27,802 nt of DNA from the NCBI GenBank assembly GCA_043814095.1, contig JBDRKI010000127.1:1-27802 (forward strand), given 5' to 3'. Below the pieces are notes generated by a model, which saw only the letters and a list, made by a program, of their open reading frames with translations, did no database searches and was not told where the DNA came from. The stretch's first letter is position 1. The number at the start of each line of letters is the position of its first letter. Made by a program: the position numbers and the translations under genes. This document shows, piece by piece, positions 3,240 through 26,509 of this stretch. The DNA is from Armatimonadota bacterium (GTDB lineage: Bacteria > Vulcanimicrobiota > JACPDS01 > JBDRKI01).

Positions 3240-3318
3240 ATACGCCTCCTGTAATAAATTTAAATACAGCACAATTATAGCATAAGGAGATATGAAAAGT
3301 TGTTAACAAAATGTTAAC
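3237..3318 (-). promoter_or_regulatory. Conserved regulatory cassette, copy 1 (GTTAAC direct-repeat box, extended -10, RBS)
   Basis: Minus strand GTTAACATTTTGTTAACAACTTTTC (3318-3294), then CCTTATGcTATAAT (-10 at 3279-3274), then GGAGGCGTATATG. The first 25 bp are identical to 6494-6518. Confidence 0.85.
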
Positions 3319-3348
3319 TTTTTACCCCTTAAAACTCCCCTATAACAT

Positions 3349-3378
3349 AAAAAAGACAGCGGTTTTACGCTATCTTTT
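3349..3378 (-). terminator. Rho-independent terminator after hflX
   Basis: Minus strand AAAAGATAGCG-taaaac-CGCTGTCTTTTTT: stem with one U-G pair followed by a U-tract. Confidence 0.7.
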
Positions 3379-3400
3379 AAGAAATAATTATATTTTCTTG

Positions 3401-4519
3401 CTACCACCCGTTGCCTGAGATATCATCCATTATAAGGGCTTCTATATGGTTAAGAAGCCTTTTAAATCCTATCTTGGAAGAAGCCGATACAACAACACTC
3501 TCGGGTATCATTTTCCTTATCGCCCTTACCTTCATTTTATCTTCAACAAGATCAACCTTATTCAACACGTTTAAAACAGGCTTATTATCAGCGGCAAGAT
3601 CTGCCAAAATCTCATTAACCACCTGGTAATGTTTATACCAGTGGCTGTCCGATATATCCATAACATTTATTATCATATCGGCATACCTTGCCTCTTCCAG
3701 TGTTGATTTAAACGCCGCTACAAGCTCAACAGGCAGGTTTCTGATAAATCCCACGGTATCTACAAGAAGAAGTTCATGCCTCTGGGGAAGAGTAACTATC
3801 TTTGTCATGGGGTCTAATGTTGCGAACAATTTATCTTCAACAAGAGAGTTTGCGCCCGTTAATGTATTAAGAAGGGTTGATTTTCCCGCATTTGTGTAGC
3901 CCACTATGGCGGCTATCTTAAAGCCTCTTTTATGCCTGCCGGACCTTAAAAGCTCCCTGTGCTCTTCAACTTTTTTAAGCTCTTTCCTTAATGTGGCTAT
4001 CTTTTTATTAATATGCCTTTTATCCGTCTCAAGTTTTGTCTCACCGGGCCCCCTTGTTCCTATACCGCCTCCGAGACGGGATAGTATAACACCGTAACCC
4101 GTAAGACGGGGAAGAAGGTAATTTAACTGCGCCAGTTCAACCTGGATCTTACCTTCCCTTGATTTAGCGCGCATTGCGAATATATCAAGTATAAGGGCGT
4201 GCCTGTCAATTACTTTTTTATTTAACGCTTCCGAAATATTTCTTTCCTGTATGGGTTTCAGGTCATTTAAAAATATAATCAGGTTAACATCATATTCATA
4301 AACCAGCTGTTTCAACTGTTCAATCTTGCCCTTCCCTATAAAATACGCGGGATCGGGGCTTTCCCTTTTCTGCATAACCACTTCTGTCACTTGAGCGCCT
4401 GCGGAATAAGCAAGAAGTTCAAGCTCGGCAGTTAAATCATAAATCTGGTCCCTGTTTGAAGGAAGTTCAACCGCCACTAAAATGGCCCGTTCTTTTCTTT
4501 CCTTCTGTATGTTTATCAT
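3401..4519 (-). CDS. hflX: Ribosome-splitting GTPase HflX
   Basis: LILDIFAMRA, QVELAQL, GGGIGTRGPGETKLE, G1 GYTNAGKS, G2 LFATLD, G3 DTVGF, G4 NKVD. Confidence 0.97.
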   Translation of the reverse strand: MINIQKERKERAILVAVELPSNRDQIYDLTAELELLAYSAGAQVTEVVMQKRESPDPAYFIGKGKIEQLKQLVYEYDVNLIIFLNDLKPIQERNISEALNKKVIDRHALILDIFAMRAKSREGKIQVELAQLNYLLPRLTGYGVILSRLGGGIGTRGPGETKLETDKRHINKKIATLRKELKKVEEHRELLRSGRHKRGFKIAAIVGYTNAGKSTLLNTLTGANSLVEDKLFATLDPMTKIVTLPQRHELLLVDTVGFIRNLPVELVAAFKSTLEEARYADMIINVMDISDSHWYKHYQVVNEILADLAADNKPVLNVLNKVDLVEDKMKVRAIRKMIPESVVVSASSKIGFKRLLNHIEALIMDDISGNGW

Positions 4520-4650
4520 CTTTTTACTGATAAGGCATCACCTCATATCCCATATTCACTATATATAAAGGGTTATCCTTCACAAAAAAAGGAATTATAA
4601 TGCTCCTATGTAGAAACTTACCAACATTATAACCTTATATGAGGTGAATT

Positions 4651-5907
4651 ATGAAATTTGTAAGTATATTAGGACTTGTAATTATTCTCTTTATAGCTTT
4701 TCTATTGTGCGAAAACAAAAAGAAGATTAATTTTAAAGCTTTAATGTGGGGGCTTGTCCTGCAGCTTGCTTTTGCCCTTTTCATATTAAAAACCACTTTC
4801 GGGAAATGGATTTTTGAGTTTATAAATAAACTCGCAGTTAAGCTTCTGAATTTCACGACAGCAGGAGCATCTTTCATCTTCGGAAATCTCGTAACGGATA
4901 CAAAATCATTCGGGTTCATATTCGCATTCCAGGTGCTTCCCACGATAATATTTTTCGCGTCGCTCATGGGCGTGTTATATTATTTAGGCATTATGCAGTG
5001 GATAGTAAGAATATTCGCCATAGCCATGATTAAGCTCATGAAAACTTCCGGCATTGAATCATTAAACGCAGCTGCTAATATATTCATAGGCCAGACTGAA
5101 GCCCCTCTTTTGGTAAAACCTTATGTTTCAAAATCAACAAGATCAGAGCTTCTGGCAATTATGGTGGCAGGCATGGCTACCATAGCGGGCGGCGTAATGA
5201 TAGCGTATGTTGCAATGCTTAACGATTATGTGCCTGATATAGCAGGCCACCTTATGGCGGCATCCGTCATAAATGCCATAGGCGCCCTTATATTCACCCG
5301 CCTCATAATACCGGAGACCGAAGAACCCGAGACTCTCGGAAAAGTTAAGTTGGATGTTCCCAAAACAGACGCTAATGTTATTGATGCCGCCGCAAACGGC
5401 GCTTTTACAGGGCTTCATCTCGCGTTAAACGTGGGCGCCATGCTTCTTGCATTCATAGCTTTGATCGCTATGTGCAACTACGGGCTCCATCTTGTAGGAA
5501 TGGGTATAAATAAAATATTCAGCACTAACTTAAATTTAAGCCTCCAGTTAATATTCGGATACATATTCTCGCCATTCGCGTGGATTATAGGGATACCGTG
5601 GAAAGACTGTATACCGGTAGGAAATGTTCTCGGCATGAAGCTTATCATAAATGAATTTTTCGCGTACAGTGAATTCTCAATGATGCTTAAAAATTCAGTT
5701 TCTAAATTTGATGCAAGATCCCTTATTCTCGCTTCTTATGCATTATGCGGGTTTGCCAACTTCTCATCAATAGCGATACAGATAGGCGGTATAGGCGGTA
5801 TAGCACCATCAAGGAAACACGACCTTGCAAAACTGGGAATAAAGGCGCTCATTGCTGCAACCCTTACAAACCTTGCAACAGCGGCAATAGCTGGAATATT
5901 GATATAA
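4651..5907 (+). CDS. nupC: Concentrative nucleoside transporter (CNT/NupC family)
   Basis: FAFQVLPTIIFF, ANIFIGQTEAPL, GMATIAG, NEFFAY and YALCGFANFSSIAIQIGG signatures. Confidence 0.93.
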   Translation: MKFVSILGLVIILFIAFLLCENKKKINFKALMWGLVLQLAFALFILKTTFGKWIFEFINKLAVKLLNFTTAGASFIFGNLVTDTKSFGFIFAFQVLPTIIFFASLMGVLYYLGIMQWIVRIFAIAMIKLMKTSGIESLNAAANIFIGQTEAPLLVKPYVSKSTRSELLAIMVAGMATIAGGVMIAYVAMLNDYVPDIAGHLMAASVINAIGALIFTRLIIPETEEPETLGKVKLDVPKTDANVIDAAANGAFTGLHLALNVGAMLLAFIALIAMCNYGLHLVGMGINKIFSTNLNLSLQLIFGYIFSPFAWIIGIPWKDCIPVGNVLGMKLIINEFFAYSEFSMMLKNSVSKFDARSLILASYALCGFANFSSIAIQIGGIGGIAPSRKHDLAKLGIKALIAATLTNLATAAIAGILI

Positions 5908-5937
5908 AATATATCCGGCTAATTACTTAATATTTAA

Positions 5938-6192
5938 TTATTTATATATATCTCCGCGGGGTTTTATAAATATTATTTTTACAGTTTTTTTATCAATATC
6001 GACATCACAGATAAGCCTAAATCCACCTATAACAACCTTCCATTTTTCTTTTAATTGCCCGTAAAGCGGTTCTAGTAAGAGAAAAGGCCTCTCTTCCAGT
6101 TTTACAAAACATTTGAAAAAAGCTTTCTGAAGTTTTGGCGAAAGCTTTTTAAAATATTTTACAGGTTGTTTATCCAGTCTGACTTCAAACAT
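5938..6192 (-). CDS. Type II toxin, RelE/ParE superfamily
   Basis: 84-aa basic protein with WKVVIGGFRLI and C-terminal PRGDIYK. Overlaps the upstream antitoxin by 8 nt. Confidence 0.85.
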   Translation of the reverse strand: MFEVRLDKQPVKYFKKLSPKLQKAFFKCFVKLEERPFLLLEPLYGQLKEKWKVVIGGFRLICDVDIDKKTVKIIFIKPRGDIYK

Positions 6193-6412
6193 TCTTGAAG
6201 GCCTTTCTCCAAGGGACTCCCTTTGATTTCTTAGACTCTTTTAATGCCGTTCTGAATTCAGGATCGGCTAAAAGTTCAAGTTCTTCGGCATAATTTAAAA
6301 GAGCCGCCTCAATAACACTGTTTAAGCTTCTGTGCTGTCTATCGGCCAGTTCCTGGAACACCCTAAGAAGCTCCATCCCTAACCTTATATGAAGTGATGC
6401 TGATTTTGCCAT
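6185..6412 (-). CDS. Ribbon-helix-helix antitoxin (75 aa)
   Basis: Start moved to ATG 6412 (GAGGAGG RBS). SLHIRL strand followed by LQELADRQHRSLNSVIEAAL helices, and an ELELLADPEF tail typical of RelE-linked antitoxins. Confidence 0.85.
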   Translation of the reverse strand: MAKSASLHIRLGMELLRVFQELADRQHRSLNSVIEAALLNYAEELELLADPEFRTALKESKKSKGVPWRKAFKNV

Positions 6413-6435
6413 AAATACAACCTCCTCGCACTTAA

Positions 6436-6465
6436 ATTGTAGCACAAACGACCACAATATGTCAA
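6436..6465 (-). promoter_or_regulatory. Toxin-antitoxin promoter with overlapping inverted repeat (probable autoregulatory operator)
   Basis: Minus strand TTGACA - 18 nt - TACAAT with extended TG. Inverted repeat ATTGTAG (6436-6442) / CCACAAT (6452-6458), 6 of 7 matching. Confidence 0.7.
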
Positions 6466-6492
6466 ACAAAAAGAGACCCATAAGGTATAAAA

Positions 6493-6571
6493 TGTTAACA
6501 TTTTGTTAACAACTTTTCTCCCCCCTTATGTTATAATTTCCTTGCAAAACCTTATATCGGAGGCATATATG
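6493..6571 (+). promoter_or_regulatory. Conserved regulatory cassette, copy 2
   Basis: TGTTAACATTTTGTTAACAACTTTTC, then CCTTATGtTATAAT (-10 at 6532-6537), then GGAGGCATATATG. Confidence 0.85.
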
Positions 6572-7096
6572 AATATTTCATCGGCAAACATCAACCAGTC
6601 GGCAAAAACAATGTTTGGACCGCAGATCGTGATGACCCATCCGGCAGATTATATCGTAGAAGATAAAAAAATAAGAAAGCACGGTTTATACCACCTAATA
6701 TATGAGGTAACCGAACATCCCGAATGGTTTCCTGAAAATATTGTAACATCAGTAAATGAGCTCAGTTCCCTGCAGAAAAAACTCAACAGTAAGGTCAGGA
6801 TTATTTCAGACCTTAAGAAAATAAGAGAAGTTATAGACAATTCCAGTAAACCTAAATTGCTTGAAAAGGAACTGGGCAAAAAAGGCGTGGAAATATTTAT
6901 TTCCGAGAAAAAACTTTCTGATGAAATTAAACCTCTCTTAACCGAGAGAAAAGAGCTATTCGCGCAGATCAAAAAAGATTATTCACCGTGGTTTAAAGAA
7001 AAACAGGAAACCTTATCTATTATTGATAAGCAAAGCAGGTACTGGCTCACATTAGTGAATGTAAGCGGCTATATTGAATATTTAAATAAAAACTAA
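6569..7096 (+). CDS. Orphan hypothetical protein (175 aa), Lys/Glu-rich and helical
   Basis: Start moved to ATG 6569 on the basis of the GGAGG RBS. The TTG 6503 start lies inside the operator box. No recognisable motif. Confidence 0.75.
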   Translation: MNISSANINQSAKTMFGPQIVMTHPADYIVEDKKIRKHGLYHLIYEVTEHPEWFPENIVTSVNELSSLQKKLNSKVRIISDLKKIREVIDNSSKPKLLEKELGKKGVEIFISEKKLSDEIKPLLTERKELFAQIKKDYSPWFKEKQETLSIIDKQSRYWLTLVNVSGYIEYLNKN

Positions 7097-7117
7097 ACTT
7101 ATATGTTGAATTAAATT

Positions 7118-9427
7118 TTATTCTTCGTTTGAATCCCGGCTGCCCTGAAGGGTCAATATCTTTCTGGGCTTGCTTCCTTCGGCAGGGCCTACAACGCCCC
7201 GCTCTTCAAGTATATCCATAATCCTGCCGGCTCTTGCATATCCTATGCGGAGCTTTCTCTGAAGATATGATGTGGATGCCTGGCCTGTTGAGGTTATAAG
7301 GTTTATGGCTTCGTTTAAAAGGGTGTCATCCCCGTCTTCTGATGTTATATCTTTACCTGTTTCTTCTGTTGATACTAATTTTATCATATTGGGAGGATCA
7401 GGCTGGTTTGCCCAGAAATCAACTACTCTTTCAAGCTCATCCTGGTCAATATACGCGCCCTGGATCCTTCTGGGGTCGGCTTCATCTATTGGAAGGTAAA
7501 GCATATCTCCCCTGCCCAGCAGTTTTTCCGCGCCCTGCCTGTCAATTATAGTTCTTGAATCTATCTGTGATGATACGGCAAACGCTATCCTTGAAGGCAC
7601 GTTTGCTTTAATAAGACCGGTTATAACATCAACGCTCGGACGCTGTGTGGCAAGTATAAGGTGGATGCCTGAAGCGCGCCCTAACTGGGCAAGACGGCAA
7701 ATGGATGTTTCAACAGTTGCGGCGCTTAAAAGCATAAGGTCGGCAAGCTCGTCTATTACCAGGAAGAGGTATGGCATTTTCTCAAGATTCTTGCTCCTGC
7801 AGTGCGCGTTATACTCATAAATATTCCTGGCGCGGACTTCTGCAAACCTTTTATAGCGTTTATCCATCTCAACGGTTAGCTGTCTTAATGCAAGTGTTGC
7901 TTTTTTGGGATCTGTTACTATGCGCTGGCCTTCCGAGAAATCATTCTCAACCAGGTGAGGTATGCCTTCATAAAGTATTAATTCAACTCTTTTAGGGTCT
8001 ATCATAAGGAACTGTACCTGTGAAGGGTCATATTTAAATAATATACTTGTTATAACTGTGTTTATGCATACTGTTTTACCCGAGCCGGTAGCGCCCGCTA
8101 TTAAAAGATGGGGCATCTTTATTAAACTGTCCACAATGGGATTACCGGTTATATCCTTGCCCAGTCCGAGAGGAACTTCCTGGCCTCTTTTAAACTGGCG
8201 GCTCTCCAGTATGTCTTTTATATGCACAGGGTCTATGCTTTTATTGGGTATTTCAATGCCTATGGCGCTTTTGCCGGGTATAGGCGCTTCTATTCTTATG
8301 GACTGAGCGGCAAGAACAAGAGCAATATCGTTTGAAAGATTTGTTATCCTGCTTACCTTTACTCCCCTTGCCGGCTGGAGCTCATATCTTGTGACAGTCG
8401 GGCCCCTTTCTATATGAATAACCCTGGCATCAACTCCGAAACTCTGCAGGGTATCAACAAGAAGCTGGGAATAGTCACTAATAACTTTATTTCTGCTTGA
8501 CTTCTTTATGCCTTTTAATATGTTTGTGGGCGGGAGCCTGTATTTAATTTTTCTTGCCGGAGACATTGTTTCGGAAGATGCGGATGATTTATCCTTAACC
8601 GCCCTGATTGAACCGGGAAATAACTCTATCTGATCCTGCGGTTCTTCCGACTCCTCTGCCTGATGCGAAGAAACAGCTTTATCCAGAGGGGGCTTTACTT
8701 CTTCTTCCTTAAAAGCAACCGACTGGACCTGAGGTATTGGCTCTTCTTCTTCTTCTATCTCTTCTTCTATCTCTTCTTCGTCATCTTCTTTATTCTCATC
8801 TTCCGGATATATGGTAAGCTGTTTTACTTTAGGTGCGAATTTAGGAATGCTTATTTTCGGAATCTTTACGCTTTTTATAAATCTGAAAAGATGAGAGAAA
8901 AGAAAAGCTATCCCTTTGGCAGTCAGGGTAAAAATATCCGCCATCAGATTGATAACATCTTTTAAAGAAAACTTCCCGAGCATTAAGAATGCCGATACAA
9001 AAAGAACAATAACAAAAACATAAGCTCCGAACGAGCCTATGGTTTTAAGCAGGAAGCTTGATATCCTGTGCCCTACGGCGCCTCCGTGCTGGGAGTAAAG
9101 ATGGAAAAATATGGCAAAATCAACCACTATAACAATAGATGATATAATTGACATCCATAAACTTAACGCGCCCTGCGGGTATATAAGGTGGATGCCTATA
9201 ACAATAAATATTAAAGGTACAATATAGTGAGCCCAGCCGAAAGCAAGGGTAAATATATCCTGGAAGAACATCGAAAACGAGCTGTTAATACCCGGGAATA
9301 TAAAACTTGCAAGCAGAAATACGCTGAAAGCTATAAGGAAAACGCCTACTATCTCAAGCCAGTAAGCTTCCCTTCCCTGCTTGTTAAGGGTATCTATATA
9401 TTTTCTTTTTATTTTTCTTCTCGCCAT
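7118..9427 (-). CDS. ftsK: DNA translocase FtsK/SpoIIIE
   Basis: N-terminal TM helices, MPHLLIAGATGSGKT Walker A, IDELADLM Walker B, ATQRPSVDVITG, gamma domain LQRKLRIGYARAGRIMD. Confidence 0.97.
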   Translation of the reverse strand: MARRKIKRKYIDTLNKQGREAYWLEIVGVFLIAFSVFLLASFIFPGINSSFSMFFQDIFTLAFGWAHYIVPLIFIVIGIHLIYPQGALSLWMSIISSIVIVVDFAIFFHLYSQHGGAVGHRISSFLLKTIGSFGAYVFVIVLFVSAFLMLGKFSLKDVINLMADIFTLTAKGIAFLFSHLFRFIKSVKIPKISIPKFAPKVKQLTIYPEDENKEDDEEEIEEEIEEEEEPIPQVQSVAFKEEEVKPPLDKAVSSHQAEESEEPQDQIELFPGSIRAVKDKSSASSETMSPARKIKYRLPPTNILKGIKKSSRNKVISDYSQLLVDTLQSFGVDARVIHIERGPTVTRYELQPARGVKVSRITNLSNDIALVLAAQSIRIEAPIPGKSAIGIEIPNKSIDPVHIKDILESRQFKRGQEVPLGLGKDITGNPIVDSLIKMPHLLIAGATGSGKTVCINTVITSILFKYDPSQVQFLMIDPKRVELILYEGIPHLVENDFSEGQRIVTDPKKATLALRQLTVEMDKRYKRFAEVRARNIYEYNAHCRSKNLEKMPYLFLVIDELADLMLLSAATVETSICRLAQLGRASGIHLILATQRPSVDVITGLIKANVPSRIAFAVSSQIDSRTIIDRQGAEKLLGRGDMLYLPIDEADPRRIQGAYIDQDELERVVDFWANQPDPPNMIKLVSTEETGKDITSEDGDDTLLNEAINLITSTGQASTSYLQRKLRIGYARAGRIMDILEERGVVGPAEGSKPRKILTLQGSRDSNEE

Positions 9428-9439
9428 AACACACCGCTC

Positions 9440-10627
9440 TTAACCGTTTAAGTATTCCCATGCCGCCTTCACGTGAATTGCGGCTCCGGTTTTCAGTATT
9501 TTTTCATCAAAATAGAATTCTTTATTATGCAGCTGTATATTTTTTCCTTTAATTCCCGAGCCCAGTTTTATAAACACGGAGGGAACTTTCCTTGAAAAAT
9601 AGGCAAAATCCTCCCCGCCGAGCATGGGTTTCGCAAGTTTTTGAACATTATTCCTGCCTAATAAATCTTTAAGATTTTTTGAAACAAAATCCGTCATGTT
9701 ATCATCATTAATTACGGTAGGATAACCGCCGGATAAATTAATGGAAAATTTCGCGTTATATTTTTTTGTAAGTTTTTTAAGTTCATCCTTAACGACTTTA
9801 TGAACTTTCTTCCTTACATCTTCTTTTAATGTTCTTATTGTCCCGAAAAGCTCTGTCTTGTCGGAAATAATATTATGTTTTGTCCCGCCTTTTATCTTTC
9901 CTATGGTTATAACAACCGGATACGGCTTATTATCAAACTTGTCCTTTATTTTATGAAGCGCCTCAATAACTTTTGAAGCTAATGATATCGTGTCAACGGC
10001 ATGCTCCGGATACGCGCCGTGCCCTGATTTGCCGAGCAGGGTTATCTCTACTTCATCCGCGAAAGCCGAACTTACGCCCTTTTTTAACGATATCTTTCCC
10101 GAGAGTATTGAAGGGAAAATATGAAGGCCAAACGCGGCGGAAACTTTAGGATTTTTTAAAACCCCTTCTTTTATCATTGGAAGCGCGCCGCCGGAAGTTT
10201 CTTCCGCGGGCTGGAAAACCAGCTTTATATTCCCCTTAATTTTATCCTTTAAGCCGTTTAATACAGCCGCCGCCCCTATAAGGCACGCGATATGCCCGTC
10301 ATGGCCGCACGCGTGCATAAAACCATCATGCCTGGAAGAAAAGGCAAGGCCTGTCTCTTCTTTAAGGGTTAAAGCATCCATATCCGCTCTTAAAAGAATG
10401 GTCCTGCCTTTTTCTTTTCCTTTTATTAAAGCGACAACACCGGTACCCGCAGAAGCTTTTATATCCTTTATGCCTATCTTTTTAAGACAGTTTTTTATAA
10501 AAGCGGAAGTTTTAAATTCCTTAAACCCCGGTTCGGGATACTGATGAATCCTCCGCCTTATCTTAACCATCTCAGGATATATACGGTTAATTTCTTTAAA
10601 TATATAATTATTTATGTCTTTACTCAT
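9440..10627 (-). CDS. M20D family amidohydrolase
   Basis: RRRIHQYPE, LRADMDAL, MHACGHDGH, FQPAEE and GGEDF motifs. Confidence 0.93.
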   Translation of the reverse strand: MSKDINNYIFKEINRIYPEMVKIRRRIHQYPEPGFKEFKTSAFIKNCLKKIGIKDIKASAGTGVVALIKGKEKGRTILLRADMDALTLKEETGLAFSSRHDGFMHACGHDGHIACLIGAAAVLNGLKDKIKGNIKLVFQPAEETSGGALPMIKEGVLKNPKVSAAFGLHIFPSILSGKISLKKGVSSAFADEVEITLLGKSGHGAYPEHAVDTISLASKVIEALHKIKDKFDNKPYPVVITIGKIKGGTKHNIISDKTELFGTIRTLKEDVRKKVHKVVKDELKKLTKKYNAKFSINLSGGYPTVINDDNMTDFVSKNLKDLLGRNNVQKLAKPMLGGEDFAYFSRKVPSVFIKLGSGIKGKNIQLHNKEFYFDEKILKTGAAIHVKAAWEYLNG

Positions 10628-10683
10628 AAAATTAATAATATTCCCTTAAATATTCTTTTTACCGCTTTGTATTTTTAAGCGAA

Positions 10684-11127
10684 TTAAATTAATACTTTAA
10701 TAAGGTCGTGCCTTGTTATTATGCCTGTAAGCTTGCCGTCTTTAAGCACCGGCACGCGGTTAACCTGCCTCTCAACCATTAAAGAAGCAACATCTTCAAC
10801 AGTCTCTTCTTCGGCTACCGTTAAAAGCTCTTTGGTCATAATCTGCTCTGCGGTATATGAAAGAATCTTTTTCAGTTCATCTTCCATCTCATGGGGCCTC
10901 GCAAGATAAATTATCCCACCCAGAAGCTGTATATGCGGAGGAAGATGCGGACCGGAGACCTTTGTAATAAGGTCTGTCTCGGAGACTATGCCAAGTATAT
11001 TATTCTCCTCATCCACAACAGGCAGACCGCTTATGTTTTTCTCATACAGCAGTTTCGCTATCTCCTTAACAGGCGTATCCGGCTTTACCGTAATAACATT
11101 TTTCTCCATTACTTCTTTTGCCAGCAT
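10684..11127 (-). CDS. CBS domain pair protein
   Basis: ISGLPVVD/GIVSETDL and RVPVLKDGKLTGIITRHDL. Start set at ATG 11127 (GGAGG RBS). Confidence 0.92.
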   Translation of the reverse strand: MLAKEVMEKNVITVKPDTPVKEIAKLLYEKNISGLPVVDEENNILGIVSETDLITKVSGPHLPPHIQLLGGIIYLARPHEMEDELKKILSYTAEQIMTKELLTVAEEETVEDVASLMVERQVNRVPVLKDGKLTGIITRHDLIKVLI

Positions 11128-11146
11128 GTTTTTTACCTCCAAAAAT

Positions 11147-12691: not shown

Positions 12692-12695
12692 AAAA

Positions 12696-13262: not shown

Positions 13263-15056
13263 TTGAAGAATTTATTCTTAAAAAGAGGGAAAATGTCAAT
13301 TTTAATAATAAGCCTGGTCCTGGGCTTATTAATGTATTTTCTTTACGCCTTAAATCTTTTCAGCTTCTGGGACTGGAAAGCGGCAGACTTTTTCTTTTAT
13401 ATAAGGCCTACCGTTGATACAAATCCCGACATTATAATTGTGGCAATTGACGATGAATCCATAAGTAAATTCGGCAAATTCCCGTGGGATACCAAGGTCC
13501 ACGCGAAACTTTTAAATAATCTGGCAAAACAAAAGCCTAAACTGATATGTTTTGATATACTTTTTGATAAACCGGATAAAAATCCTTACAGCGATCAATT
13601 ACTGGCCGAAGCCATGAAAAACGCCGGCAATGTCATATTGTCCATGGGATTTATAGCACAATCACGCCCTGCGGATTATTATAAACGGGATTCTGATATT
13701 ACCCTGGATATTGCCAGAGCGCGCATGCCTTTAAAAGAGTTCCGCGACGCGGCTCTTGATCTGGGTGTTACTAATATTTTTCCCGAAAAAGACGCTATAA
13801 ACAGAAAAATCTATCTCTCAATCCCCTTCGGAGACCAGAACTTCCTCTCTTTCGCGGCGGCGGCAGCCATGTACGCGATGAACCTGACAACCAAAGACAT
13901 TAAAATACTGCCAAACGATATCGATCCTAAAATTTTCTGTTTGGGCAAAGAACACATAAATCTTCACGGCGACGGCTGGACAATAATAAATTACTGCTAC
14001 GGCGTAAACAGGTTTTACAACATACCTTATTATGAAGTTTACGATAATACCACACCTAAAGATTTTTTTAAAGATAAAATAATACTGATCGGGAACACTG
14101 CCGCAGGTCTCGGCGATATGTGGGCTACTCCCATATGGCACGCCCTGCCCGGGGTAGAGATACAGGCGAATGTTCTTAATAATATATTTGACAATAATTT
14201 TTTAAAGAAAGATATTCCCGTAAAGAACTTTATAATCATAATAGTATTATCCATTATGCTCGGCATAACAACTTCCCTGTTCTCGCCGGTAAAAAACGCC
14301 TTATGCTCTATCGGCATGATACTGCTCTTCCTTATCTATTCATTCTGGCAGTTTACAGGCAATAATGTTATACTGCCCACGGCCACGGTGCTTATAACCA
14401 TAATATTCCTGTTCATTATTTTAAATATATTCAGGCTGGTATCCGAAGAACGCGAGAAAAAAGAAATAACGGTGGAAAAAGAAAAGTACTATGAAATGGC
14501 AACGGTTGACGGCCTAACCCAGCTTTATGTGGCCAGGTATTTCAGGCAGTGCCTGAAAGAAGAAGTGGAGAAAGCCCAGAAAGAAAACTTAACTTTAAGC
14601 TTTGTAATGGTGGATATAGACAACTTTAAAAAAGTAAACGACGTATACGGCCACGAACAGGGAAATATTGTCCTTAGGGAAACCGCCCAGATAATTAAAA
14701 ACGCCCTGCGGTCCCAGTCAGATATAGCGGCAAGGTACGGTGGAGAAGAAATAGCCATAATACTGCCAAACACGGAACCCGATACCGCTTTCCAGATAGC
14801 AAACAGGATAAGGGAAAGTATGGCTTCCCATAATTACTCGGGTTTTAAAGGATTCAAGCAGATAACGGCAAGCTTCGGGGTATCAAGCTACCCGCACCAC
14901 GCCCAGAACGAATCCGAACTTGTTGAACGCGCGGACGAAGCTTTATATACTTCAAAAAGAACGGGTAAAAACAAGGTTACAATGGGGCGGAAAAAAGTTG
15001 AAGGCGAAGAGTCTGCCCGTCCGGAAGAAGAACCGCCGCCTCAGGAAGATCATTAA
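13263..15056 (+). CDS. CHASE2-GGDEF diguanylate cyclase (start may be ATG 13293)
   Basis: CHASE2 motifs IIIVAIDDES, FPW, FDILF and PGVEIQAN, then three TM helices, then DGLT, DIDNFKKVNDVYGH and ARYGGEEI. Confidence 0.92.
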   Translation: MKNLFLKRGKMSILIISLVLGLLMYFLYALNLFSFWDWKAADFFFYIRPTVDTNPDIIIVAIDDESISKFGKFPWDTKVHAKLLNNLAKQKPKLICFDILFDKPDKNPYSDQLLAEAMKNAGNVILSMGFIAQSRPADYYKRDSDITLDIARARMPLKEFRDAALDLGVTNIFPEKDAINRKIYLSIPFGDQNFLSFAAAAAMYAMNLTTKDIKILPNDIDPKIFCLGKEHINLHGDGWTIINYCYGVNRFYNIPYYEVYDNTTPKDFFKDKIILIGNTAAGLGDMWATPIWHALPGVEIQANVLNNIFDNNFLKKDIPVKNFIIIIVLSIMLGITTSLFSPVKNALCSIGMILLFLIYSFWQFTGNNVILPTATVLITIIFLFIILNIFRLVSEEREKKEITVEKEKYYEMATVDGLTQLYVARYFRQCLKEEVEKAQKENLTLSFVMVDIDNFKKVNDVYGHEQGNIVLRETAQIIKNALRSQSDIAARYGGEEIAIILPNTEPDTAFQIANRIRESMASHNYSGFKGFKQITASFGVSSYPHHAQNESELVERADEALYTSKRTGKNKVTMGRKKVEGEESARPEEEPPPQEDH

Positions 15057-15545: not shown

Positions 15546-15555
15546 TTAATTCCTC

Positions 15556-16911: not shown

Positions 16912-16922
16912 AAATCCCGCTT

Positions 16923-17954: not shown

Positions 17955-17987
17955 ATTTCCCTCGCAAAAATCATTTATTTTACGCTT

Positions 17988-20043: not shown

Positions 20044-20047
20044 ACCT

Positions 20048-22162: not shown

Positions 22163-23077
22163 TTATTTCCTCAACAATTTGTAAAATTTAGCTGCTAATC
22201 CGGGAACCCGTATGCTTAACTGCATAAATCTTGAGTATACTCTGAACCTGTAATTTAAATGCCTTAAATGATTCTTAATCCCCAAGCTTTTATTTGACGC
22301 AATGTGATTCTCTATAACATCGCTGTAATTATCAAACTCCTGCTTCCTTGTTTCTTTAAGTTCTTCTATAAGGGACTGCATATATACGGGGTGAGATTCT
22401 TTAAACCTTACGCAGTATCTTCCCTCCCAGTTTAAAAAAGAGTCTTTCTCCACTTTATCCAGTTCCGAATAAGTGGCATCACCGCACTGTGCATATAACT
22501 TCCATTTTTCAAGCACTTCATCCTTTAATGTTACATAGCCGTAATGGTAAAAAAGATACGGAAGCACAATTCTTGAGCCACTCTGGCCGGTAAGCTTCTC
22601 GTGAACAGAACCTGTCCATTTAAGGGAAGGGGTATATCTCACAAAAAGGTCATGTCTTCTGTCTATGCTGAATATATAATCAAATGACTGCATAAAATGA
22701 TAAAAATATGAATCTACAACCCCCACTTTCTCCGGCAGAGCAGGGAGGATATCTCTTGTGACTGTTTTTAAACAAACAGGGTGAACTTCATCACTGTCAA
22801 TTTTTATAACCCATGTGTTTTTATCAGGCTTTAATGAATGTATGTATTCTAGATACTTGTTTCTCGCGTCATCAAAACCTTTAAAAGGATGAAATAAAAG
22901 TTTAACTTTATCCTCTTTATAAAATTGAGAACCTTTCACAATATCAAGATTAGGATTATCCTTATCGGAACTGTTGTCATTAATAACAACAAGATCAACA
23001 GCATCATTTAAGCTGTCAAGACAAGCCTTTAAAAAAGGTTCATTCCTGTTTGATATTATCATTGTAGCGATTATCAT
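22163..23077 (-). CDS. GT2-like glycosyltransferase (WaaE/KdtX-like)
   Basis: NEPFLKACLDSL, IDSDE (DxD), WTGSVHE and HYGY. Confidence 0.75.
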   Translation of the reverse strand: MIIATMIISNRNEPFLKACLDSLNDAVDLVVINDNSSDKDNPNLDIVKGSQFYKEDKVKLLFHPFKGFDDARNKYLEYIHSLKPDKNTWVIKIDSDEVHPVCLKTVTRDILPALPEKVGVVDSYFYHFMQSFDYIFSIDRRHDLFVRYTPSLKWTGSVHEKLTGQSGSRIVLPYLFYHYGYVTLKDEVLEKWKLYAQCGDATYSELDKVEKDSFLNWEGRYCVRFKESHPVYMQSLIEELKETRKQEFDNYSDVIENHIASNKSLGIKNHLRHLNYRFRVYSRFMQLSIRVPGLAAKFYKLLRK

Positions 23078-23079
23078 AT

Positions 23080-23985
23080 TTACCTTTTTATCCCCATACT
23101 GTAATAATAATTCAATAGATATTCATATATTTTATACAATTTCTTTTTCTCTTTAACAGTCAAATTTCCCTTATTTTCCAGCATTCTTACCTTTTTAAGC
23201 CAGAGGTCCTTTGTTAAGGAATTTAAAAGGAGGGTCTCTTTTAATTTCCTGGGGTGAATGCTCAGCTTTTCTTTTAATTCGGGATAAAGCCCGGCAAAAT
23301 ACGCGGCAGACCGCCCCATTAAATACTTTCTTCCCAGAAAACTTTCAAAATCTCTGAAGTAATGGTGGTAGCCTTCGGCATCCTTATTATATTTTATAAC
23401 ATACCCCGCTTTAATTAATCTATATCCGAACTCCGTATCCTCAAAACCGTACTCGTTAAATTTTACGTCAAATCCGCCGAGAGCATTAAACACATCTTTT
23501 TTAATAGAAATATTTCCGGTATAAAAATATCCAAAACCTACATTCTCGGGATCTACACCCTTATATGTATTCTGGAGATCATTCTCTAAAAGATAACTTG
23601 TAAAATGATTTAACTTCACGTTTTTATCTTCTTCTATATGACCTAAGACCCCGTCAGCCCCGGTAGAATAATATTTAAGATGTTCTTCTAGAAGAGATGA
23701 TGAAGCTATCATATCATCATCAAGGAAAAGAATTATATCCGCATCGGCTTTTAAAACGCCGGAATTTCTTTTGACAGCGGCCCCGGGAGACTCACACGCG
23801 TAATATTCAATATTAATCTTTTTCTTAACATCATTTATAACTTCAACTGTCTTATCATTTGTAAAATCTTCAACCACTATAACTTCAAACGCTTCATTGG
23901 GAAGAGTCTGTGCGGTTAAAGAAGATAAAACCAGCCCTAAAACATCTGCTCTTCTGTGTGTAGCTATAACAACACTTATCTTCAT
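23080..23985 (-). CDS. GT2 family glycosyltransferase
   Basis: MKISVVIAT, FLDDD, GGFD and YGFEDTEFGYRL. Confidence 0.92.
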   Translation of the reverse strand: MKISVVIATHRRADVLGLVLSSLTAQTLPNEAFEVIVVEDFTNDKTVEVINDVKKKINIEYYACESPGAAVKRNSGVLKADADIILFLDDDMIASSSLLEEHLKYYSTGADGVLGHIEEDKNVKLNHFTSYLLENDLQNTYKGVDPENVGFGYFYTGNISIKKDVFNALGGFDVKFNEYGFEDTEFGYRLIKAGYVIKYNKDAEGYHHYFRDFESFLGRKYLMGRSAAYFAGLYPELKEKLSIHPRKLKETLLLNSLTKDLWLKKVRMLENKGNLTVKEKKKLYKIYEYLLNYYYSMGIKR

Positions 23986-25496
23986 AAATCATCCGTCCTG
24001 TATAAAGATATATCCTGGACCGGGATATCATCTGTTCTATATTTATCCTTACTCCCGCCTTCCGCGTTAAAACCGGAAAAACTTACCTGCTTAAAAACCT
24101 TGTACGGAGTAACACCCTCAAGCTCTTTATTATAAGCAAATATGTTGACTAAGGTTTCTGCTTGGGAATACTCCATAACTTCGCCTAGTTTTCCAATAGG
24201 TATTACATCATCACCCATATAATAAGCGAAAACAGGATACATCTCATCAACATATGATACAAGTTTTGTATCATTATTTTCATAAATATATTTAACGACT
24301 TCACCGTAATTTGACCGCAGGTTAATAACGGGCTTAAGGGCTAAAACGCCAAAAATAACTATACATACAATAATAAAGCTCGCCAGAACCTTCCCTAAAA
24401 CTCTCCGCTTCTCCCATTTTCCCAAACTTATTACCGCGAAAGCGGCAATAACAGCTATTGCGGGAAGTGCAGAAGCAAATGAGCGTAAGACCCTAAGGTG
24501 CGGGTAAAACCCGTACCAGATTACAGGGAATAGTGCCAGTACTATAAGTACAAATTCTGCCATATTAAAATTCCTCTTCAACCTTTTTACAAGCATAAAA
24601 ATACCGGCAAAGAAGAATAAGAACACAATCCAACCTTCCATTTTCTGGAAAAAATAAAAGAAAAAGAAAGGATCCGCCCCGTATTTTGACTGCTGTGCGA
24701 TAGCGGAAAAACTCCCTCTTAATTCTTCAAAATAAGTAACGGGGAAAATTCCTTTCACCATAAGAGTTATAATCTGCCATAATATTATAGGGATTGCCAT
24801 CCCTGCCGCAAAGCCCATAATTTTTATAAATTTAAACTTTGATTCTTTATCTACAAATAACAATCTTAAAACTTCAAACCCCAGAAAAAGAGGCAGCATT
24901 AAAAGCATATTATAGTGTATGGTAAAAGATACCCCTACCATTAAAGCGCAGAGTATCATATAAAAATAACGTCTATTCCCTAAAGAAAGTACGTAAAAAT
25001 AAAAAGCAAGAAAAAGGAAAAAGATACCGGCGGCAATAGGAAGCCCGCACCTTGAATACATTATATGCATGGGACTCACGGCAAGTATCACAGCCGAAAG
25101 TAGAGCTGCATTCTCATCAAAGATTCTCCTTGCAATTAAATACACAAGAAAAACGGTGAGTGCCCCGAAAAATACCGATACAATAAAAGAAGAATGCGTG
25201 CTTAACCCGAATATAATCTGGGATAACATAATTAAAAAGACAAATCCCACCTTGCTTCCCGAACCGTAATTAGGGACATCTTTCCCTATATGTTCTTTAA
25301 GAACAGGGTCTTTCTCCGATATCTTGGGTTTATCAACAATCTTTAAATATTTTGCCTTGGCGCTGCAGAGGTATACCCCTTCATCATAAAAGAAGATACC
25401 CTTCCCCTCTATATTATAATTCCGTACCAGGGTACCGAACATAATTATAAGGAGCAGGAGGATCACTGCAAGACTCGTATTTTTAACTTTATTCAT
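23982..25496 (-). CDS. ArnT/PMT-like (GT-C fold) membrane glycosyltransferase
   Basis: FYDEGVY loop after TM1, many TM helices, LAVSPMHIMYSR. Confidence 0.85.
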   Translation of the reverse strand: MNKVKNTSLAVILLLLIIMFGTLVRNYNIEGKGIFFYDEGVYLCSAKAKYLKIVDKPKISEKDPVLKEHIGKDVPNYGSGSKVGFVFLIMLSQIIFGLSTHSSFIVSVFFGALTVFLVYLIARRIFDENAALLSAVILAVSPMHIMYSRCGLPIAAGIFFLFLAFYFYVLSLGNRRYFYMILCALMVGVSFTIHYNMLLMLPLFLGFEVLRLLFVDKESKFKFIKIMGFAAGMAIPIILWQIITLMVKGIFPVTYFEELRGSFSAIAQQSKYGADPFFFFYFFQKMEGWIVFLFFFAGIFMLVKRLKRNFNMAEFVLIVLALFPVIWYGFYPHLRVLRSFASALPAIAVIAAFAVISLGKWEKRRVLGKVLASFIIVCIVIFGVLALKPVINLRSNYGEVVKYIYENNDTKLVSYVDEMYPVFAYYMGDDVIPIGKLGEVMEYSQAETLVNIFAYNKELEGVTPYKVFKQVSFSGFNAEGGSKDKYRTDDIPVQDISLYRTDDL

Positions 25497-25502
25497 TAAA
25501 AT

Positions 25503-26360
25503 TTACCTCTGGTGAAACTGCCTTCTTATGCTGGCAATCTGGTCAGCAAGAAAACCGAAAAAGAATATAAAAACGCTGACAAGCAGTGTAAATACGGATC
25601 CTCCGAAGATGCCCCCGTAATGCATAAGCTGGCAAAGAGCTAACCCTCCCCCTATTATAAAAAGAAGGACGCTTACAGGCAAAAAGAATTTTAAAGGATC
25701 AAACAACATTACTATCCTTGTAACTATATATAAAAATCTCACCCCGTCATTAACAAGTTTAATCTTGCTTTTCCCTTTTGATCTTTTGGATATTGTATCC
25801 ATATCAACATACCTAACAGGATACCCTGCTTTAAACATTGCAAGCGTTATTGTAGAGGGATATGAAAAAGTATTCGGGAGAAGGTGTATAAACTCAAGCA
25901 TCCTATCCCTTTTTATAGCCCTGAATCCTGATGTAAGATCCACAACCTTATGGTTAGCCAAAAAAGAAGCTATTTTATTTAATACCGAATTAAGTATTGA
26001 TCTTGTAAACCAGAGCTTTCCTTTTTTAGTCCTTGCCCCTACTACCATATCATATTTATCCATATCTTCCAGAAGTTTCGGTATGTCCGAAGGGTTATGC
26101 TGTCCGTCGCCATCCATAAAAACAAGGTAATCTTTGGTAGCGGCTCTTACACCTGTTTTAACAGATGCCCCGTTCCCTATATTATACGGGTGGGATATAA
26201 CTTTAGCCCCTGCCGAAGACGCAACTTCTGCGGTATTATCATCTGAGCCGTCATCAACAACTATAATCTCGAACTCAGAACTTACGTTTCTTACCCCCTC
26301 TATAACCTCTTTTATTGCTTCGCCTTCATTATATGCAGGTATAATTACTGATACATTCAT
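25503..26360 (-). CDS. Polyprenol-phosphate glycosyltransferase (DPM1/ArnC-like GT2)
   Basis: VIIPAYNE, VVDDGSDD, MDGDGQH, DLTSGFRA and two C-terminal TM helices. Confidence 0.9.
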   Translation of the reverse strand: MNVSVIIPAYNEGEAIKEVIEGVRNVSSEFEIIVVDDGSDDNTAEVASSAGAKVISHPYNIGNGASVKTGVRAATKDYLVFMDGDGQHNPSDIPKLLEDMDKYDMVVGARTKKGKLWFTRSILNSVLNKIASFLANHKVVDLTSGFRAIKRDRMLEFIHLLPNTFSYPSTITLAMFKAGYPVRYVDMDTISKRSKGKSKIKLVNDGVRFLYIVTRIVMLFDPLKFFLPVSVLLFIIGGGLALCQLMHYGGIFGGSVFTLLVSVFIFFFGFLADQIASIRRQFHQR

Positions 26361-26468
26361 AATAACTCCCTCTTTTTTCCGCTTTTTTCTCTATTTATTA
26401 TAATAAATCCTTGTTAAATCTTATCTTTTTAACCCTTATTATACTTTATTCTTATTATAAAGTATATT

Positions 26469-26509
26469 TTGTTAACAAAATGTTAACAATTTGGTAATAA
26501 TTTGGCAAT
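26469..26509. promoter_or_regulatory. Copy 3 of the GTTAAC box, extended to four half-sites at 11-bp spacing
   Basis: TGTTAAC 26470, TGTTAAC 26481, TGGTAAT 26492 and TGGCAAT 26503. Bases 26469-26487 are identical to 3300-3318. Confidence 0.8.

What the first reader, a model, noticed from the sequence alone, without database searches (positions are those of the whole stretch)
3300..26487. Candidate undescribed regulon: identical 19-bp box marks three orphan loci across the window
Seen: TTGTTAACAAAATGTTAAC occurs exactly at 3300-3318, 6494-6512 (inverted) and 26469-26487, always intergenic and always next to a lineage-specific gene (HEAT pair, 175-aa orphan, 408+ aa repeat protein). I did not see it upstream of hflX, nupC, acpS or rplM. 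It consists of two palindromic GTTAAC half-sites 11 bp apart. Known: this fits OmpR-family consensus boxes (WalR TGTWAH-N5-TGTWAH, Bacillus PhoP TTHACA repeats, CtrA TTAA-N7-TTAA). No DNA-binding response regulator is encoded in the window. Inference: three hits in 28 kb suggest a large genome-wide programme switching on dispersed orphan proteins, for example a host-interaction, predation or developmental stage.
Basis: partly seen in the sequence, partly recalled or inferred. Interest (0 to 1): 0.9.

Follow-up and report, generated by a model that had tools for sequence, protein, structure and literature searches.

The report
Promoter box of a secretion regulon
The repeated 19-base box is a docking site for a transcription regulator found at about 93 promoters of this uncultured bacterium, and it appears to switch on a flagellum-like secretion machine that has no filament or motor, together with dozens of proteins of unknown function.

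Summary
The exact 19-mer occurs three times in the window, each time in a promoter.

It is two units of an array of the 8-bp palindrome TGTTAACA spaced 11 bp apart. Units sit at -72/-61/-50/-39 (weakly -28) from a TATAAT box, and there is no -35 box.

Genome-wide there are 93 such promoters, with almost none in the reversed-sequence control. 89 of the 93 are intergenic.

65 of 85 first genes have no Pfam family, against 5 of 40 random genes.

The regulon includes the operons of a flagellar-type type III export apparatus, in a genome with no flagellin, FliD or MotA match. Arrays occupy the same positions in that cluster in other families of the phylum.

The target proteins mostly lack signal peptides, and their N-termini are rich in Asn, Gln, Ser and Thr.

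The best mechanism is tandem binding of an OmpR/PhoB-type response regulator. The best candidate is the conserved regulator at G000:C97:38444-39136, not PhoB. The regulator's identity, its signal and actual secretion are all untested.

The scan had already noted such arrays on other contigs of this genome (e1-1369390, e1-1232159).

The parts
3300..3318 (-). Box 1. Two TGTTAACA units (GTTAAC at 3302-3307 and 3313-3318), at about -40 and -51 of the minus-strand promoter.
   Evidence: offset 22; 70-nt promoter profile score 20.5 on the minus strand.
3274..3279 (-). -10 box TATAAT, preceded by TGc (extended -10). Drives the HEAT gene.
3319..3334 (-). Distal flank TTTTAAGGGGTAAAAA. This is the 'TAAGGG-n-AAAA' boundary motif seen next to the outermost unit of many arrays.
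2034..3239 (-). First target gene of box 1, a 401-aa HEAT-repeat protein. The start codon lies 34 nt after the -10 box.
495..1994 (-). Second HEAT-repeat gene (499 aa), same strand, 39 nt downstream. Probably the same operon.
   Evidence: Operon membership is inferred.
6477..6493 (+). Distal flank CCCATAAGGTATAAAAT of array 2.
6494..6512 (+). Box 2. Units at -50 (6494-6499) and -39 (6505-6510) of a plus-strand promoter.
   Evidence: score 44.5.
6532..6537 (+). -10 box TATAAT with TG at 6529-6530. A C6 run (6520-6525) lies between the box and the -10.
6569..7096 (+). Target gene, a 175-aa ORFan with N-terminus MNISSANINQSAK. It has no Pfam family and no relative.
   Evidence: (only itself among 5.8 billion proteins).
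26469..26514 (+). Box 3 and its array. Units are GTTAAC (26471, -61), GTTAAC (26482, -50), GGTAAT (26493, -39) and GGCAAT (26504, -28).
   Evidence: score 44.5 on the plus strand, 28.9 on the minus strand.
26520..26525 (+). -10 box TAATAT with TG at 26517-26518.
26578..27801 (+). Target gene, 408 aa and open at the window end. It belongs to a 7-copy family with shared N-terminal modules, and every copy sits behind an array.

Best explanation
The 19-mer is two adjacent units of a tandem array of the 8-bp palindrome TGTTAACA, repeated every 11 bp (one DNA turn). The arrays hold 2 to 5 units, most often 4. They sit at fixed positions (-72, -61, -50, -39, weakly -28) upstream of a TATAAT -10 box, often an extended TGnTATAAT, in promoters with no -35 hexamer.

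The most likely mechanism is as follows. Phosphorylated dimers of a winged-helix OmpR/PhoB-family response regulator load side by side on one face of the helix, two dimers on four units. They replace the -35 contact and recruit RNA polymerase, as PhoB/PhoP, WalR and CtrA do.

The element marks about 93 promoters, at least about 136 genes. Its conserved core is a flagellum-derived type III export apparatus without filament or stator. In this genome the regulon has grown to include dozens of lineage-specific proteins.

The best candidate regulator is the phylum-conserved RegX3/MtrA/WalR-like protein at G000:C97:38444-39136, which has a cytoplasmic PAS histidine kinase next to it.

Shown here: the sequence architecture, the genome-wide count, the register with the -10 box and start codons, the gene content, and conservation of the sites in relatives.

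Inferred: that a protein binds, that it is this family and this gene, that it activates, and what it senses.
For: Phasing. GTTAAC pairs lie 11 bp apart 93 times, 22 bp apart 37 times and 33 bp apart 13 times. Every other distance up to 60 bp occurs at most twice. The hexamer itself is not over-represented, 750 against 818 expected. The reversed pattern gives 0.

Register. The distance from the last exact hexamer to a TAnAAT box peaks at 10/11, 21/22, 32/33 and 43/44 nt. The profile of the 54 of 78 arrays that could be oriented shows units at -72 to -33 and no TTGACA at -35.

Census.
- The 70-nt profile gives 369 windows at score 18 or more, against 5 in the reversed genome.
- These collapse to 93 loci, 85 with a Shine-Dalgarno-preceded ORF; the median gap from the -10 box to the start codon is 43 nt.
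- 89 of 93 array cores are fully intergenic.
- Units per promoter: 2 in 12, 3 in 24, 4 in 44, 5 in 10.

Not a paralogue effect: 65 of 85 first genes are singletons.

Conservation.
- The same geometry (GTTAAC-N5-GTTAAC, then 21/22/32/33 nt, then TATAAT) is seen in other families.
- The motif is enriched in relatives, for example 24/23 against 1/0 in G013 and 22/28 against 4/2 in G019.
- TGTWAH-N5-TGTWAH gives 121 against 19 in G013.
- Arrays stand before the orthologous ~272-aa FlgE/F/G-like gene in 12 of 25 relatives examined, plus G000, covering families f1, f2, f3, f7, f8, f11, f13, f14 and f16. Six genus-g5 genomes of family f5 carry a GTTTAC variant there.
- Arrays also stand before flgB in G000, G010 and G019, and just after flhA in G000 and G016.

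Regulator.
- Only 3 OmpR-type regulators are in the genome.
- The PhoB-like one sits in a phoB-phoR-pstSCAB-phoU cluster that has no array.
- Only the C97 regulator has close orthologues across the phylum: 30 of 40 relatives at 61-77% identity. The C20 regulator has them in 4 of 40 and the PhoB-like one in 0 of 40.
- Its presence matches that of the FlgE/F/G-like apparatus gene in 38 of 40 relatives.
- The 8 relatives at least 90% complete that lack it have 0 sites.
Against: No binding, expression or start-site data exist, and no RNA run holds this DNA.

Each unit is a palindrome. A dimeric helix-turn-helix protein reading GTTAAC-N5-GTTAAC as an inverted repeat would fit the sequence equally well.

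Family f5 keeps the C97 orthologue with an identical recognition-helix stretch (alignment A1). Yet the three f5 genomes tested at one mismatch (G004, G012, G029) show no clear enrichment of GTTAAC-N5-GTTAAC: 1 against 3, 0 against 10 and 11 against 3 per strand, with G/C-rich spacers unlike the box in G029. The two tested for TGTWAH-N5-TGTWAH (G004, G012) show none either. At the conserved position the genus-g5 genomes carry GTTTAC-type units. A change of box without a change of helix argues against this regulator, or means other residues set specificity.

The agreement in presence and absence rests on essentially one split (f12 and f17 against the rest), so it is weak evidence.

No array stands before the C97 regulator gene itself.

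TG at -15/-14 in part of the promoters (T in 34 of 54, G in 24 of 54) could give basal transcription, so repression is not excluded.

Gene calls are my own crude ORF-plus-Shine-Dalgarno heuristic, and the profile was trained on this same genome.
Confidence: 0.6

Rival explanations
1. The arrays are bound by a regulator of another family. For example, a dimeric helix-turn-helix protein could read adjacent units as an inverted repeat (GTTAAC-N5-GTTAAC) and polymerise along the array. It might be encoded among the unannotated genes.
For: Each unit is a perfect 8-bp palindrome, and spacers occur in both orientations: AAAAT, ATTTT, AATTT. Arrays score on both strands. Family f5 changes the box while the recognition helix of the C97 regulator stays identical. 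Most genes of the regulon have no family, so an unknown DNA-binding protein could be among them.
Against: Arrays with odd unit counts are common: 24 promoters have 3 units and 10 have 5. The strict 11-bp head-to-tail phasing and the fixed register replacing the -35 are the hallmark of OmpR/PhoB-type sites. No candidate gene was found in or next to the conserved apparatus cluster.
Confidence: 0.2
2. The arrays are operators of a repressor or silencer that keeps recently acquired, AT-rich orphan genes off. The protein would coat the DNA from -72 to -28 and block RNA polymerase.
For: Targets are overwhelmingly lineage-specific. Units reach -39/-28, where bound protein would clash with polymerase. 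Part of the promoters have an extended -10 that could work alone.
Against: The conserved core of the regulon is an ancient apparatus cluster, with arrays kept at the same positions across families, not foreign DNA. The promoters have no -35 element. That is typical of activator-dependent promoters.
Confidence: 0.1
3. It is the Pho box of the phosphate-starvation regulator PhoB.
For: The 11-bp phased units, 4 per promoter, replacing the -35, look like Bacillus PhoP and E. coli PhoB sites (recalled).
Against: The phoB-phoR-pstSCAB-phoU cluster (C36:18454-27126) has no array at score 18 or more, and none is visible upstream. This PhoB has no close orthologue in any of 40 relatives, although the motif is phylum-wide. 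No phosphate-scavenging gene is among the 20 annotated first genes.
Confidence: 0.04
4. It is a non-regulatory dispersed repeat: a miniature mobile element or an uptake-type sequence.
For: About 90 copies of a near-identical short sequence, nearly all intergenic.
Against: Flanks are not conserved beyond a short boundary motif, and unit number varies from 2 to 7. The position is locked to the -10 boxes and start codons. Sites are kept at orthologous positions in genomes of other families.
Confidence: 0.02

Closest known systems
WalR/VicR boxes of Bacillota (TGTWAH-N5-TGTWAH)
   Same: The 19-mer reads T-TGTTAA-CAAAA-TGTTAA-C, an exact fit to the consensus (passages of PMC4168254). The best NCBIfam hit of the candidate regulator is YycF/WalR. 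Both are direct repeats one helical turn apart.
   Different: The regulator scores below the WalR cut-off (279.7 against 340 bits) and its kinase far below WalK's (219 against 725). The arrays have 3-5 units rather than 2. There are 93 promoters. The targets are an export apparatus and orphans, not a cell-wall hydrolase set.
Pho boxes: Bacillus subtilis PhoP core binding region (four TTAACA-like hexamers, 11-bp phase, -60 to -20) and E. coli PhoB pho boxes (recalled, not from a call)
   Same: The same unit (TTAACA), the same phase, typically four units, and the -35 is replaced.
   Different: The pst/phoU cluster and phoB itself carry no array, and the regulon content is unrelated to phosphate.
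CtrA boxes of Alphaproteobacteria (TTAA-N7-TTAA at -35)
   Same: GTTAAC-N5-GTTAAC contains TTAA-N7-TTAA. CtrA activates roughly 100 genes, mostly from a site at -35 (abstract and passages of PMC11264516). CtrA also controls early flagellar genes (recalled), and here the basal-body operons carry the box.
   Different: CtrA is not among the 25 best NCBIfam hits shown for any of the three regulators. CtrA promoters usually have one site, not phased arrays of 3-5 units (PMC11264516 passages). This is a different phylum.
Effector-regulon boxes of injectisome type III systems: the Xanthomonas HrpX PIP box and the Pseudomonas syringae HrpL hrp box (recalled)
   Same: One short box stands before both the apparatus operons and many dispersed, lineage-specific genes, so the box can be used to list candidate substrates.
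   Different: The sequence and regulator family differ (an AraC-type protein and an ECF sigma factor there). The apparatus here is flagellar-type, not an injectisome. Secretion of the targets is untested.
Flagellar basal bodies kept without flagellin, as in Buchnera aphidicola (recalled)
   Same: The export gate, C-ring, MS-ring and rod genes are present, with no flagellin match.
   Different: Here the state is widespread in a free-living, uncultured phylum: 27 of 41 genomes have no flagellin match, yet all 41 have FlhA. It also coexists with a true flagellar cluster in some genomes (G013, G019).

Membership tests
WalR/VicR-type box and WalRK system | Two hexamers TGTWAH separated by 5 nt | tested here: met
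   Direct reading of the 19-mer against the consensus quoted in PMC4168254.
WalR/VicR-type box and WalRK system | The cognate regulator and kinase are WalR and WalK orthologues | tested here: not met
   The C97 regulator scores 279.7 bits against the YycF cut-off of 340. Its kinase scores 219 against 725 for WalK, and at 357 aa it matches only the C-terminal part of the WalK model (positions 266-594).
WalR/VicR-type box and WalRK system | The regulon is centred on cell-wall hydrolases | tested here: not met
   Among the 20 annotated first genes none is a classical autolysin. One SLT transglycosylase lies inside the apparatus operon.
Pho box / PhoB-PhoP regulon | Direct repeats in 11-bp phase, 2-4 or more units, taking the place of the -35 | tested here: met
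Pho box / PhoB-PhoP regulon | The box stands before the pst operon and phoB | tested here: not met
   No profile hit at score 18 or more in C36:17000-29000, and no array in the sequence upstream of phoB.
CtrA box / CtrA regulon | TTAA-N7-TTAA overlapping the -35 | tested here: met
   The unit at -39 to -33 and its neighbour at -50 contain TTAA-N7-TTAA. The consensus is from PMC11264516.
CtrA box / CtrA regulon | The regulator is a CtrA orthologue | tested here: inconclusive
   CtrA is not among the 25 best of the 92-100 NCBIfam matches listed for the three regulators. The full lists were not shown.
OmpR/PhoB-family response-regulator operator (general) | A winged-helix regulator of the genome binds the repeats | not testable with these tools
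   Three candidates exist. Binding needs EMSA or DAP-seq.
Type III secretion regulon box (works like a PIP or hrp box) | The same box stands before the apparatus operons and before dispersed substrate genes | tested here: inconclusive
   The apparatus operons carry it in G000 and in relatives. That the dispersed genes encode substrates rests only on N-terminal composition.
Miniature mobile element / dispersed repeat | Conserved full-length copies with terminal repeats, independent of promoters | tested here: not met
   Unit number is variable, flanks are unrelated, and the register with the -10 box is fixed.

The most novel reading that the evidence does not exclude
The box is the regulatory signature of a flagellum-derived type III secretion system that has lost its filament, cap, hook-junction proteins and stator. 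This would be a conversion of the flagellar export machine into a secretion device, independent of the injectisome, and it appears to be conserved across most of this uncultured phylum. The 60 to 85 signal-less proteins behind the box in this genome would then be its secreted substrates or effectors. These have Asn/Gln/Ser/Thr-rich N-termini and include proteases, HEAT-repeat proteins and a family with shared N-terminal modules and variable C-termini. If so, the box gives a ready-made list of that secretome.
Probability: 0.3. Interest if true: 0.85.

Novelty: new variant of a known kind. Interest (0 to 1): 0.68.

Why it matters
Phased response-regulator boxes are textbook, but three things here are not.

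First, one box accounts for about 93 promoters in a 2.5-Mb genome, three quarters of them in front of proteins with no known family. This gives those orphans a shared, testable context.

Second, the conserved core of the regulon is a flagellar-type export apparatus, in genomes where no flagellin, cap or stator gene was found. The same cluster and box recur across many families of the phylum. In genomes that also have a real flagellum, no exact box match fell on the flagellar contigs. This makes the question of what filament-less flagellar export systems are for directly approachable.

Third, the box is a practical handle. It predicts candidate substrates, one candidate regulator and three short promoters that can be tested by gel shift and reporter assays without culturing the organism.

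Tried and rejected
- **Expression evidence.** The look-up of sequencing runs listed no RNA holder. It listed only one DNA run, with a small share of the words, which I did not lay.
- **Close relatives by name.** The first genome-contig scan, with HflX, found nothing. The second, with FlhA, gave as nearest an uncultured MAG at 61% identity, with everything else at 49% or less across many phyla. The phylum label 'Armatimonadota' therefore comes only from earlier notes of this scan and was not verified here.
- **Function of the orphans.** The 175-aa orphan has no relative among 5.8 billion proteins at near lengths. The ESM Atlas gave no usable hit for it or for the 408-aa protein.
- **Autoregulation.** None of the three OmpR-type regulator genes has an array upstream.
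- **Literature.** These searches found no paper on this system:
  - 'Armatimonadota' with 'type III secretion': 5 papers held the terms and 3 were listed, none relevant by title or abstract.
  - 'Armatimonadetes' with flagellar, secretion system and flagellin: 0 papers.
  - 'TTAACA' with direct repeats and response regulator: 0 papers.
  - 'RUG807': 0 papers.
  - A broad search on flagellin-less export gave only general flagellar papers.
- **Sigma-factor explanation.** The genome has RpoD, a SigH-type factor and two ECF factors. The -10 box is a plain TATAAT, so I dropped the idea that the units are a special -35 element. The spacing to the -10 box (20 bp) is too long, and the units repeat.
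- **Pho box.** Rejected; see the rival explanations.

Full report
**Observation.** The 19-mer TTGTTAACAAAATGTTAAC is present exactly at 3300-3318 (+), 6494-6512 (-) and 26469-26487 (+). Shuffled sequence gives 0.01 matches on average. All three copies are intergenic.
- Sites 1 and 2 share GTTAACATTTTGTTAACAACTTTT, then 13-14 nt, then TGnTATAAT.
- Site 3 continues into two degenerate units (GGTAAT, GGCAAT) before TGtTAATAT.
- The genes driven are the HEAT-repeat gene 2034-3239(-), probably together with the second HEAT gene 495-1994; the 175-aa orphan 6569-7096(+); and the open-ended 408-aa ORF from 26578(+).

**Genome-wide picture.** The window is contig C127 of a 2.50-Mb, 129-contig genome with 39% G+C.
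- GTTAAC-N5-GTTAAC occurs 93 times and the reversed pattern 0 times.
- The hexamer itself is not enriched (750 against 818 expected), but its spacing is. Pairs lie 11 bp apart 93 times, 22 bp apart 37 times and 33 bp apart 13 times. No other distance up to 60 bp occurs more than twice.
- This gives 78 arrays of 2-4 exact hexamers.
- The distance from the last exact hexamer to a TAnAAT box peaks at 10/11, 21/22, 32/33 and 43/44 nt. The arrays are therefore in phase with the -10 box.

**Promoter profile.** I aligned on the -10 box the 54 of 78 arrays that had an in-phase box on one side only. Nine had one on both sides and 15 on neither.
- The alignment shows GTTAACA units starting at -72, -61, -50 and -39, a weak one at -28, A/T-rich 4-nt spacers, partial TG at -15/-14, and nothing like TTGACA at -35.
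- A 70-nt profile built from this alignment finds 369 windows at score 18 or more, against 5 in the reversed genome.
- After merging shifted and opposite-strand hits these are 93 loci.
- 85 loci have an ORF of 40 aa or more with a Shine-Dalgarno-like motif within 400 nt. The median gap from the end of the -10 box to the start codon is 43 nt.
- 89 of 93 array cores are fully intergenic by my ORF calls, which cover 81% of the genome.
- Units per promoter: 2 in 12, 3 in 24, 4 in 44, 5 in 10, and 6-7 in 2. Occupancy is 89 of 93 at -50 and 76 of 93 at both -39 and -61.
- Caveats: the profile was trained on this genome, the control is only the reversed sequence, and the gene calls are a simple heuristic of mine.

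**What the promoters drive.**
- The 85 first genes are not a paralogue family. 65 are singletons, and the largest cluster has 7 members and includes the window's third target.
- 65 of 85 have no Pfam family at E 1e-4 or better. Among 40 randomly drawn non-target ORFs the figure is 5 of 40. Restricted to proteins of 90 aa or more it is 56 of 76 against 5 of 40, odds ratio 19.6, Fisher p = 2e-10.
- The annotated minority are proteases (three caspase-like, S9, an M90/ATLF-like metallopeptidase, a Met-zincin, and a 2980-aa protein with M16 domains), four HEAT-repeat proteins, NAGPA, GH114, an HD-GYP-type domain, and three flagellar-type proteins.
- The 175-aa orphan of the window has no relative among 5.8 billion proteins at near lengths and no usable Atlas neighbour.

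**The apparatus.** Contig C54 carries a flagellar-type type III export cluster. In order of transcription:
- an array, then flgB, flgC, fliE, fliF, fliG, fliH, fliI, fliJ, an SLT transglycosylase and a FliK-like gene;
- a second array, then a 273-aa FlgE/F/G-like gene, fliM, fliN, fliO, fliP, fliQ, fliR, flhB and flhA;
- a third array, then the Met-zincin gene.

Contig C55 has a fourth array before a second FliK-like gene, an FlhB-C-like gene, flgF, flgG and a rod-binding protein.

The genome is 98.97% complete. Even so, it gave no match to Flagellin_N, FliD_C or MotA/ExbB, and only three proteins with the rod/hook C-terminal domain: FlgC, FlgF and FlgG. Its sigma factors are RpoD, a SigH-type factor and two ECF factors. 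No FliA was seen. A missing match is not proof of absence. Still, the picture is a basal body and export gate without filament, cap, junction proteins or stator.

**Target proteins look exportable without Sec.** Only 10 of 85 have a hydrophobic N-terminus; in the 78 of them that are 80 aa or longer the share is 12%, against 26% of 1987 control ORFs.
- Residues 2-25 are enriched in Asn (2.2-fold), Gln (1.8-fold), Pro, Thr and Ser, and depleted in Leu, Glu, Lys, Cys and His.
- Mann-Whitney p is 5e-14 for Asn and 2e-18 for Asn+Ser+Thr+Gln.
- Ile is favoured at position 3, and Asn at positions 5, 6, 8 and 9.
- This resembles what is described for type III secretion signals (recalled). It is not a test of secretion.

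**Conservation.** Relatives are distant: one genome in the same order, the rest only in the same phylum.
- The exact motif is present above control in 22 of 40 relatives.
- It is strongly enriched in several: TTAAC-N5-GTTAAC gives 24/23 against 1/0 in G013 and 22/28 against 4/2 in G019. TGTWAH-N5-TGTWAH gives 121 against 19 in G013.
- The promoter geometry is the same there. Targets again include orphans with polar N-termini and a clostripain-type protease.
- All 41 genomes have FlhA, and many have two full-length copies. Only 14 of 41 have flagellin.
- Among the loci fetched for 29 relatives I read the stretch before the orthologous ~272-aa FlgE/F/G-like gene in 25. An array stands there in G001, G002, G006, G007, G010, G013, G016, G019, G022, G025 and G039, besides G000. 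Six genus-g5 genomes of family f5 carry a GTTTAC/GAAAC variant in the same 11-bp phase. In seven genomes the gene follows its neighbour without a promoter.
- Arrays also stand before flgB in G010 and G019, and just after flhA in G016, as in G000.
- In G013 and G019 these sites lie on the contig of the second FlhA. None of the listed exact matches lies on the contigs that carry flagellin next to the other FlhA.
- The box therefore appears to be an old part of this filament-less cluster.

**Which regulator.** The genome encodes three OmpR-family regulators.
- One (C36) heads a phoB-phoR-x-pstSCAB-phoU cluster that has no array. It has no close orthologue in 40 relatives.
- One (C20) sits between a BaeS-like kinase gene and an ABC exporter gene. 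It has orthologues in 4 of 40 relatives.
- The third (C97:38444-39136) is followed by a 357-aa PAS kinase. It is 61-77% identical in 30 of 40 relatives. It resembles RegX3 and MtrA among solved structures, and YycF/WalR, MtrA and PhoB among NCBIfam models, all below their cut-offs.
- Its presence agrees with that of the FlgE/F/G-like gene in 38 of 40 relatives. Both are missing from families f12 and f17, whose members have no sites.
- This makes it the best candidate, but only on distribution. The agreement is essentially one phylogenetic split.
- Against it: family f5 keeps the regulator with an identical recognition-helix stretch, while the f5 genomes tested show no clear enrichment of the standard box (G004, G012 and G029 at one mismatch; G004 and G012 for TGTWAH) and the genus-g5 genomes use a variant box at the conserved position.

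**Comparison with known systems.**
- The sequence fits the WalR consensus (PMC4168254, passages) and contains CtrA's TTAA-N7-TTAA (PMC11264516, abstract and passages).
- The four-unit, 11-bp, -35-replacing layout is that of Bacillus PhoP and E. coli PhoB sites (recalled).
- Membership in the WalRK, Pho or CtrA systems is not supported; see the membership table.
- It works like those systems. In its use, one box before apparatus operons and many dispersed lineage-specific genes, it works like the PIP and hrp boxes of injectisome regulons (recalled).

**Earlier notes of this scan.** Notes on other contigs of the same genome had seen three TTAACA arrays and called them ordinary regulator sites (e1-1369390). 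They had also seen a shared element before caspase-like lipoprotein genes (e1-1232159). My results agree with both. They add the genome-wide scale, the fixed promoter register, the link to the export apparatus, and the exclusion of PhoB.

**Verdict.** The element itself is a known kind of site. The size and content of the regulon, and its tie to a filament-less flagellar-type export system, are new as far as my four topic searches of the held library show. Still open: the binding protein, activation versus repression, the signal, and whether the targets are secreted.

Noticed in passing
G000:C4:6322-7311 and G000:C67:7470-8060; relatives: [quoted passage not shown] G000 has at least two. Genomes of family f10 have 12-18 FHIPEP matches each. 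FlhA-C is the docking platform for export substrates, so these could be soluble sorting adaptors.
   Followed up: no
Upstream of the outermost unit of many arrays; in the window 6477-6493, 3319-3334 and 26454-26470: A boundary motif 'wTAAGGG-n2-AAAAw' sits directly next to the distal unit. G occurs at -10 to -8 in 38-48 of 93 promoters, and A at -4 to -2 in 66-72 of 93. Its role is unexplained. It could be a second factor's site or an end-stop for the array.
   Followed up: partly
window 6520-6525: A C6 run lies between box 2 and its -10 box.
   Followed up: no
window 26578-27801 and G000 contigs C48, C56, C90, C17, C107, C122: A seven-member family shares N-terminal modules (about residues 1-200 and 217-615) but has different C-termini. 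One copy of at least 2980 aa carries M16 peptidase domains. Four of the seven copies run off contig ends. The layout recalls polymorphic toxin or effector families.
   Followed up: partly
G000 whole genome: There is no match to the MotA/ExbB/TolQ family anywhere. Yet the window encodes a heptosyltransferase-type enzyme and other envelope glycosyltransferases, and the genome has four secretin genes.
   Followed up: no
G000:C75:64512-65165 (L125:1393-2046): A sigma factor scores above the curated cut-offs of the sporulation SigH equivalogs (342-361 bits). This is unexpected if the phylum label from earlier notes is right.
   Followed up: no
window 5938-6481 (-): A small two-gene pair reads divergently from box 2. 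It has a ribbon-helix-helix protein (RHH_1, 22.9 bits, cut-off 20.5) and a weak ParE-like match (20.9 bits, below the cut-off of 23). It looks like a toxin-antitoxin pair.
   Followed up: no
L282-L287 (genus-g5 genomes of family f5), upstream of the FlgE/F/G-like gene: At the position where other families have GTTAAC units, these six genomes have GTTTAC / GAAAC / GTTTAA in the same 11-bp phase. The candidate regulator's recognition helix is unchanged.
   Followed up: partly
G000:C37:67994-68647 and window 13263-15056: An HD-GYP-type (HD_5) gene is a target of the box. The window encodes a CHASE2-GGDEF cyclase, and a c-di-GMP phosphodiesterase-like ORF follows the candidate regulator's kinase. 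This hints at a link to c-di-GMP signalling.
   Followed up: no
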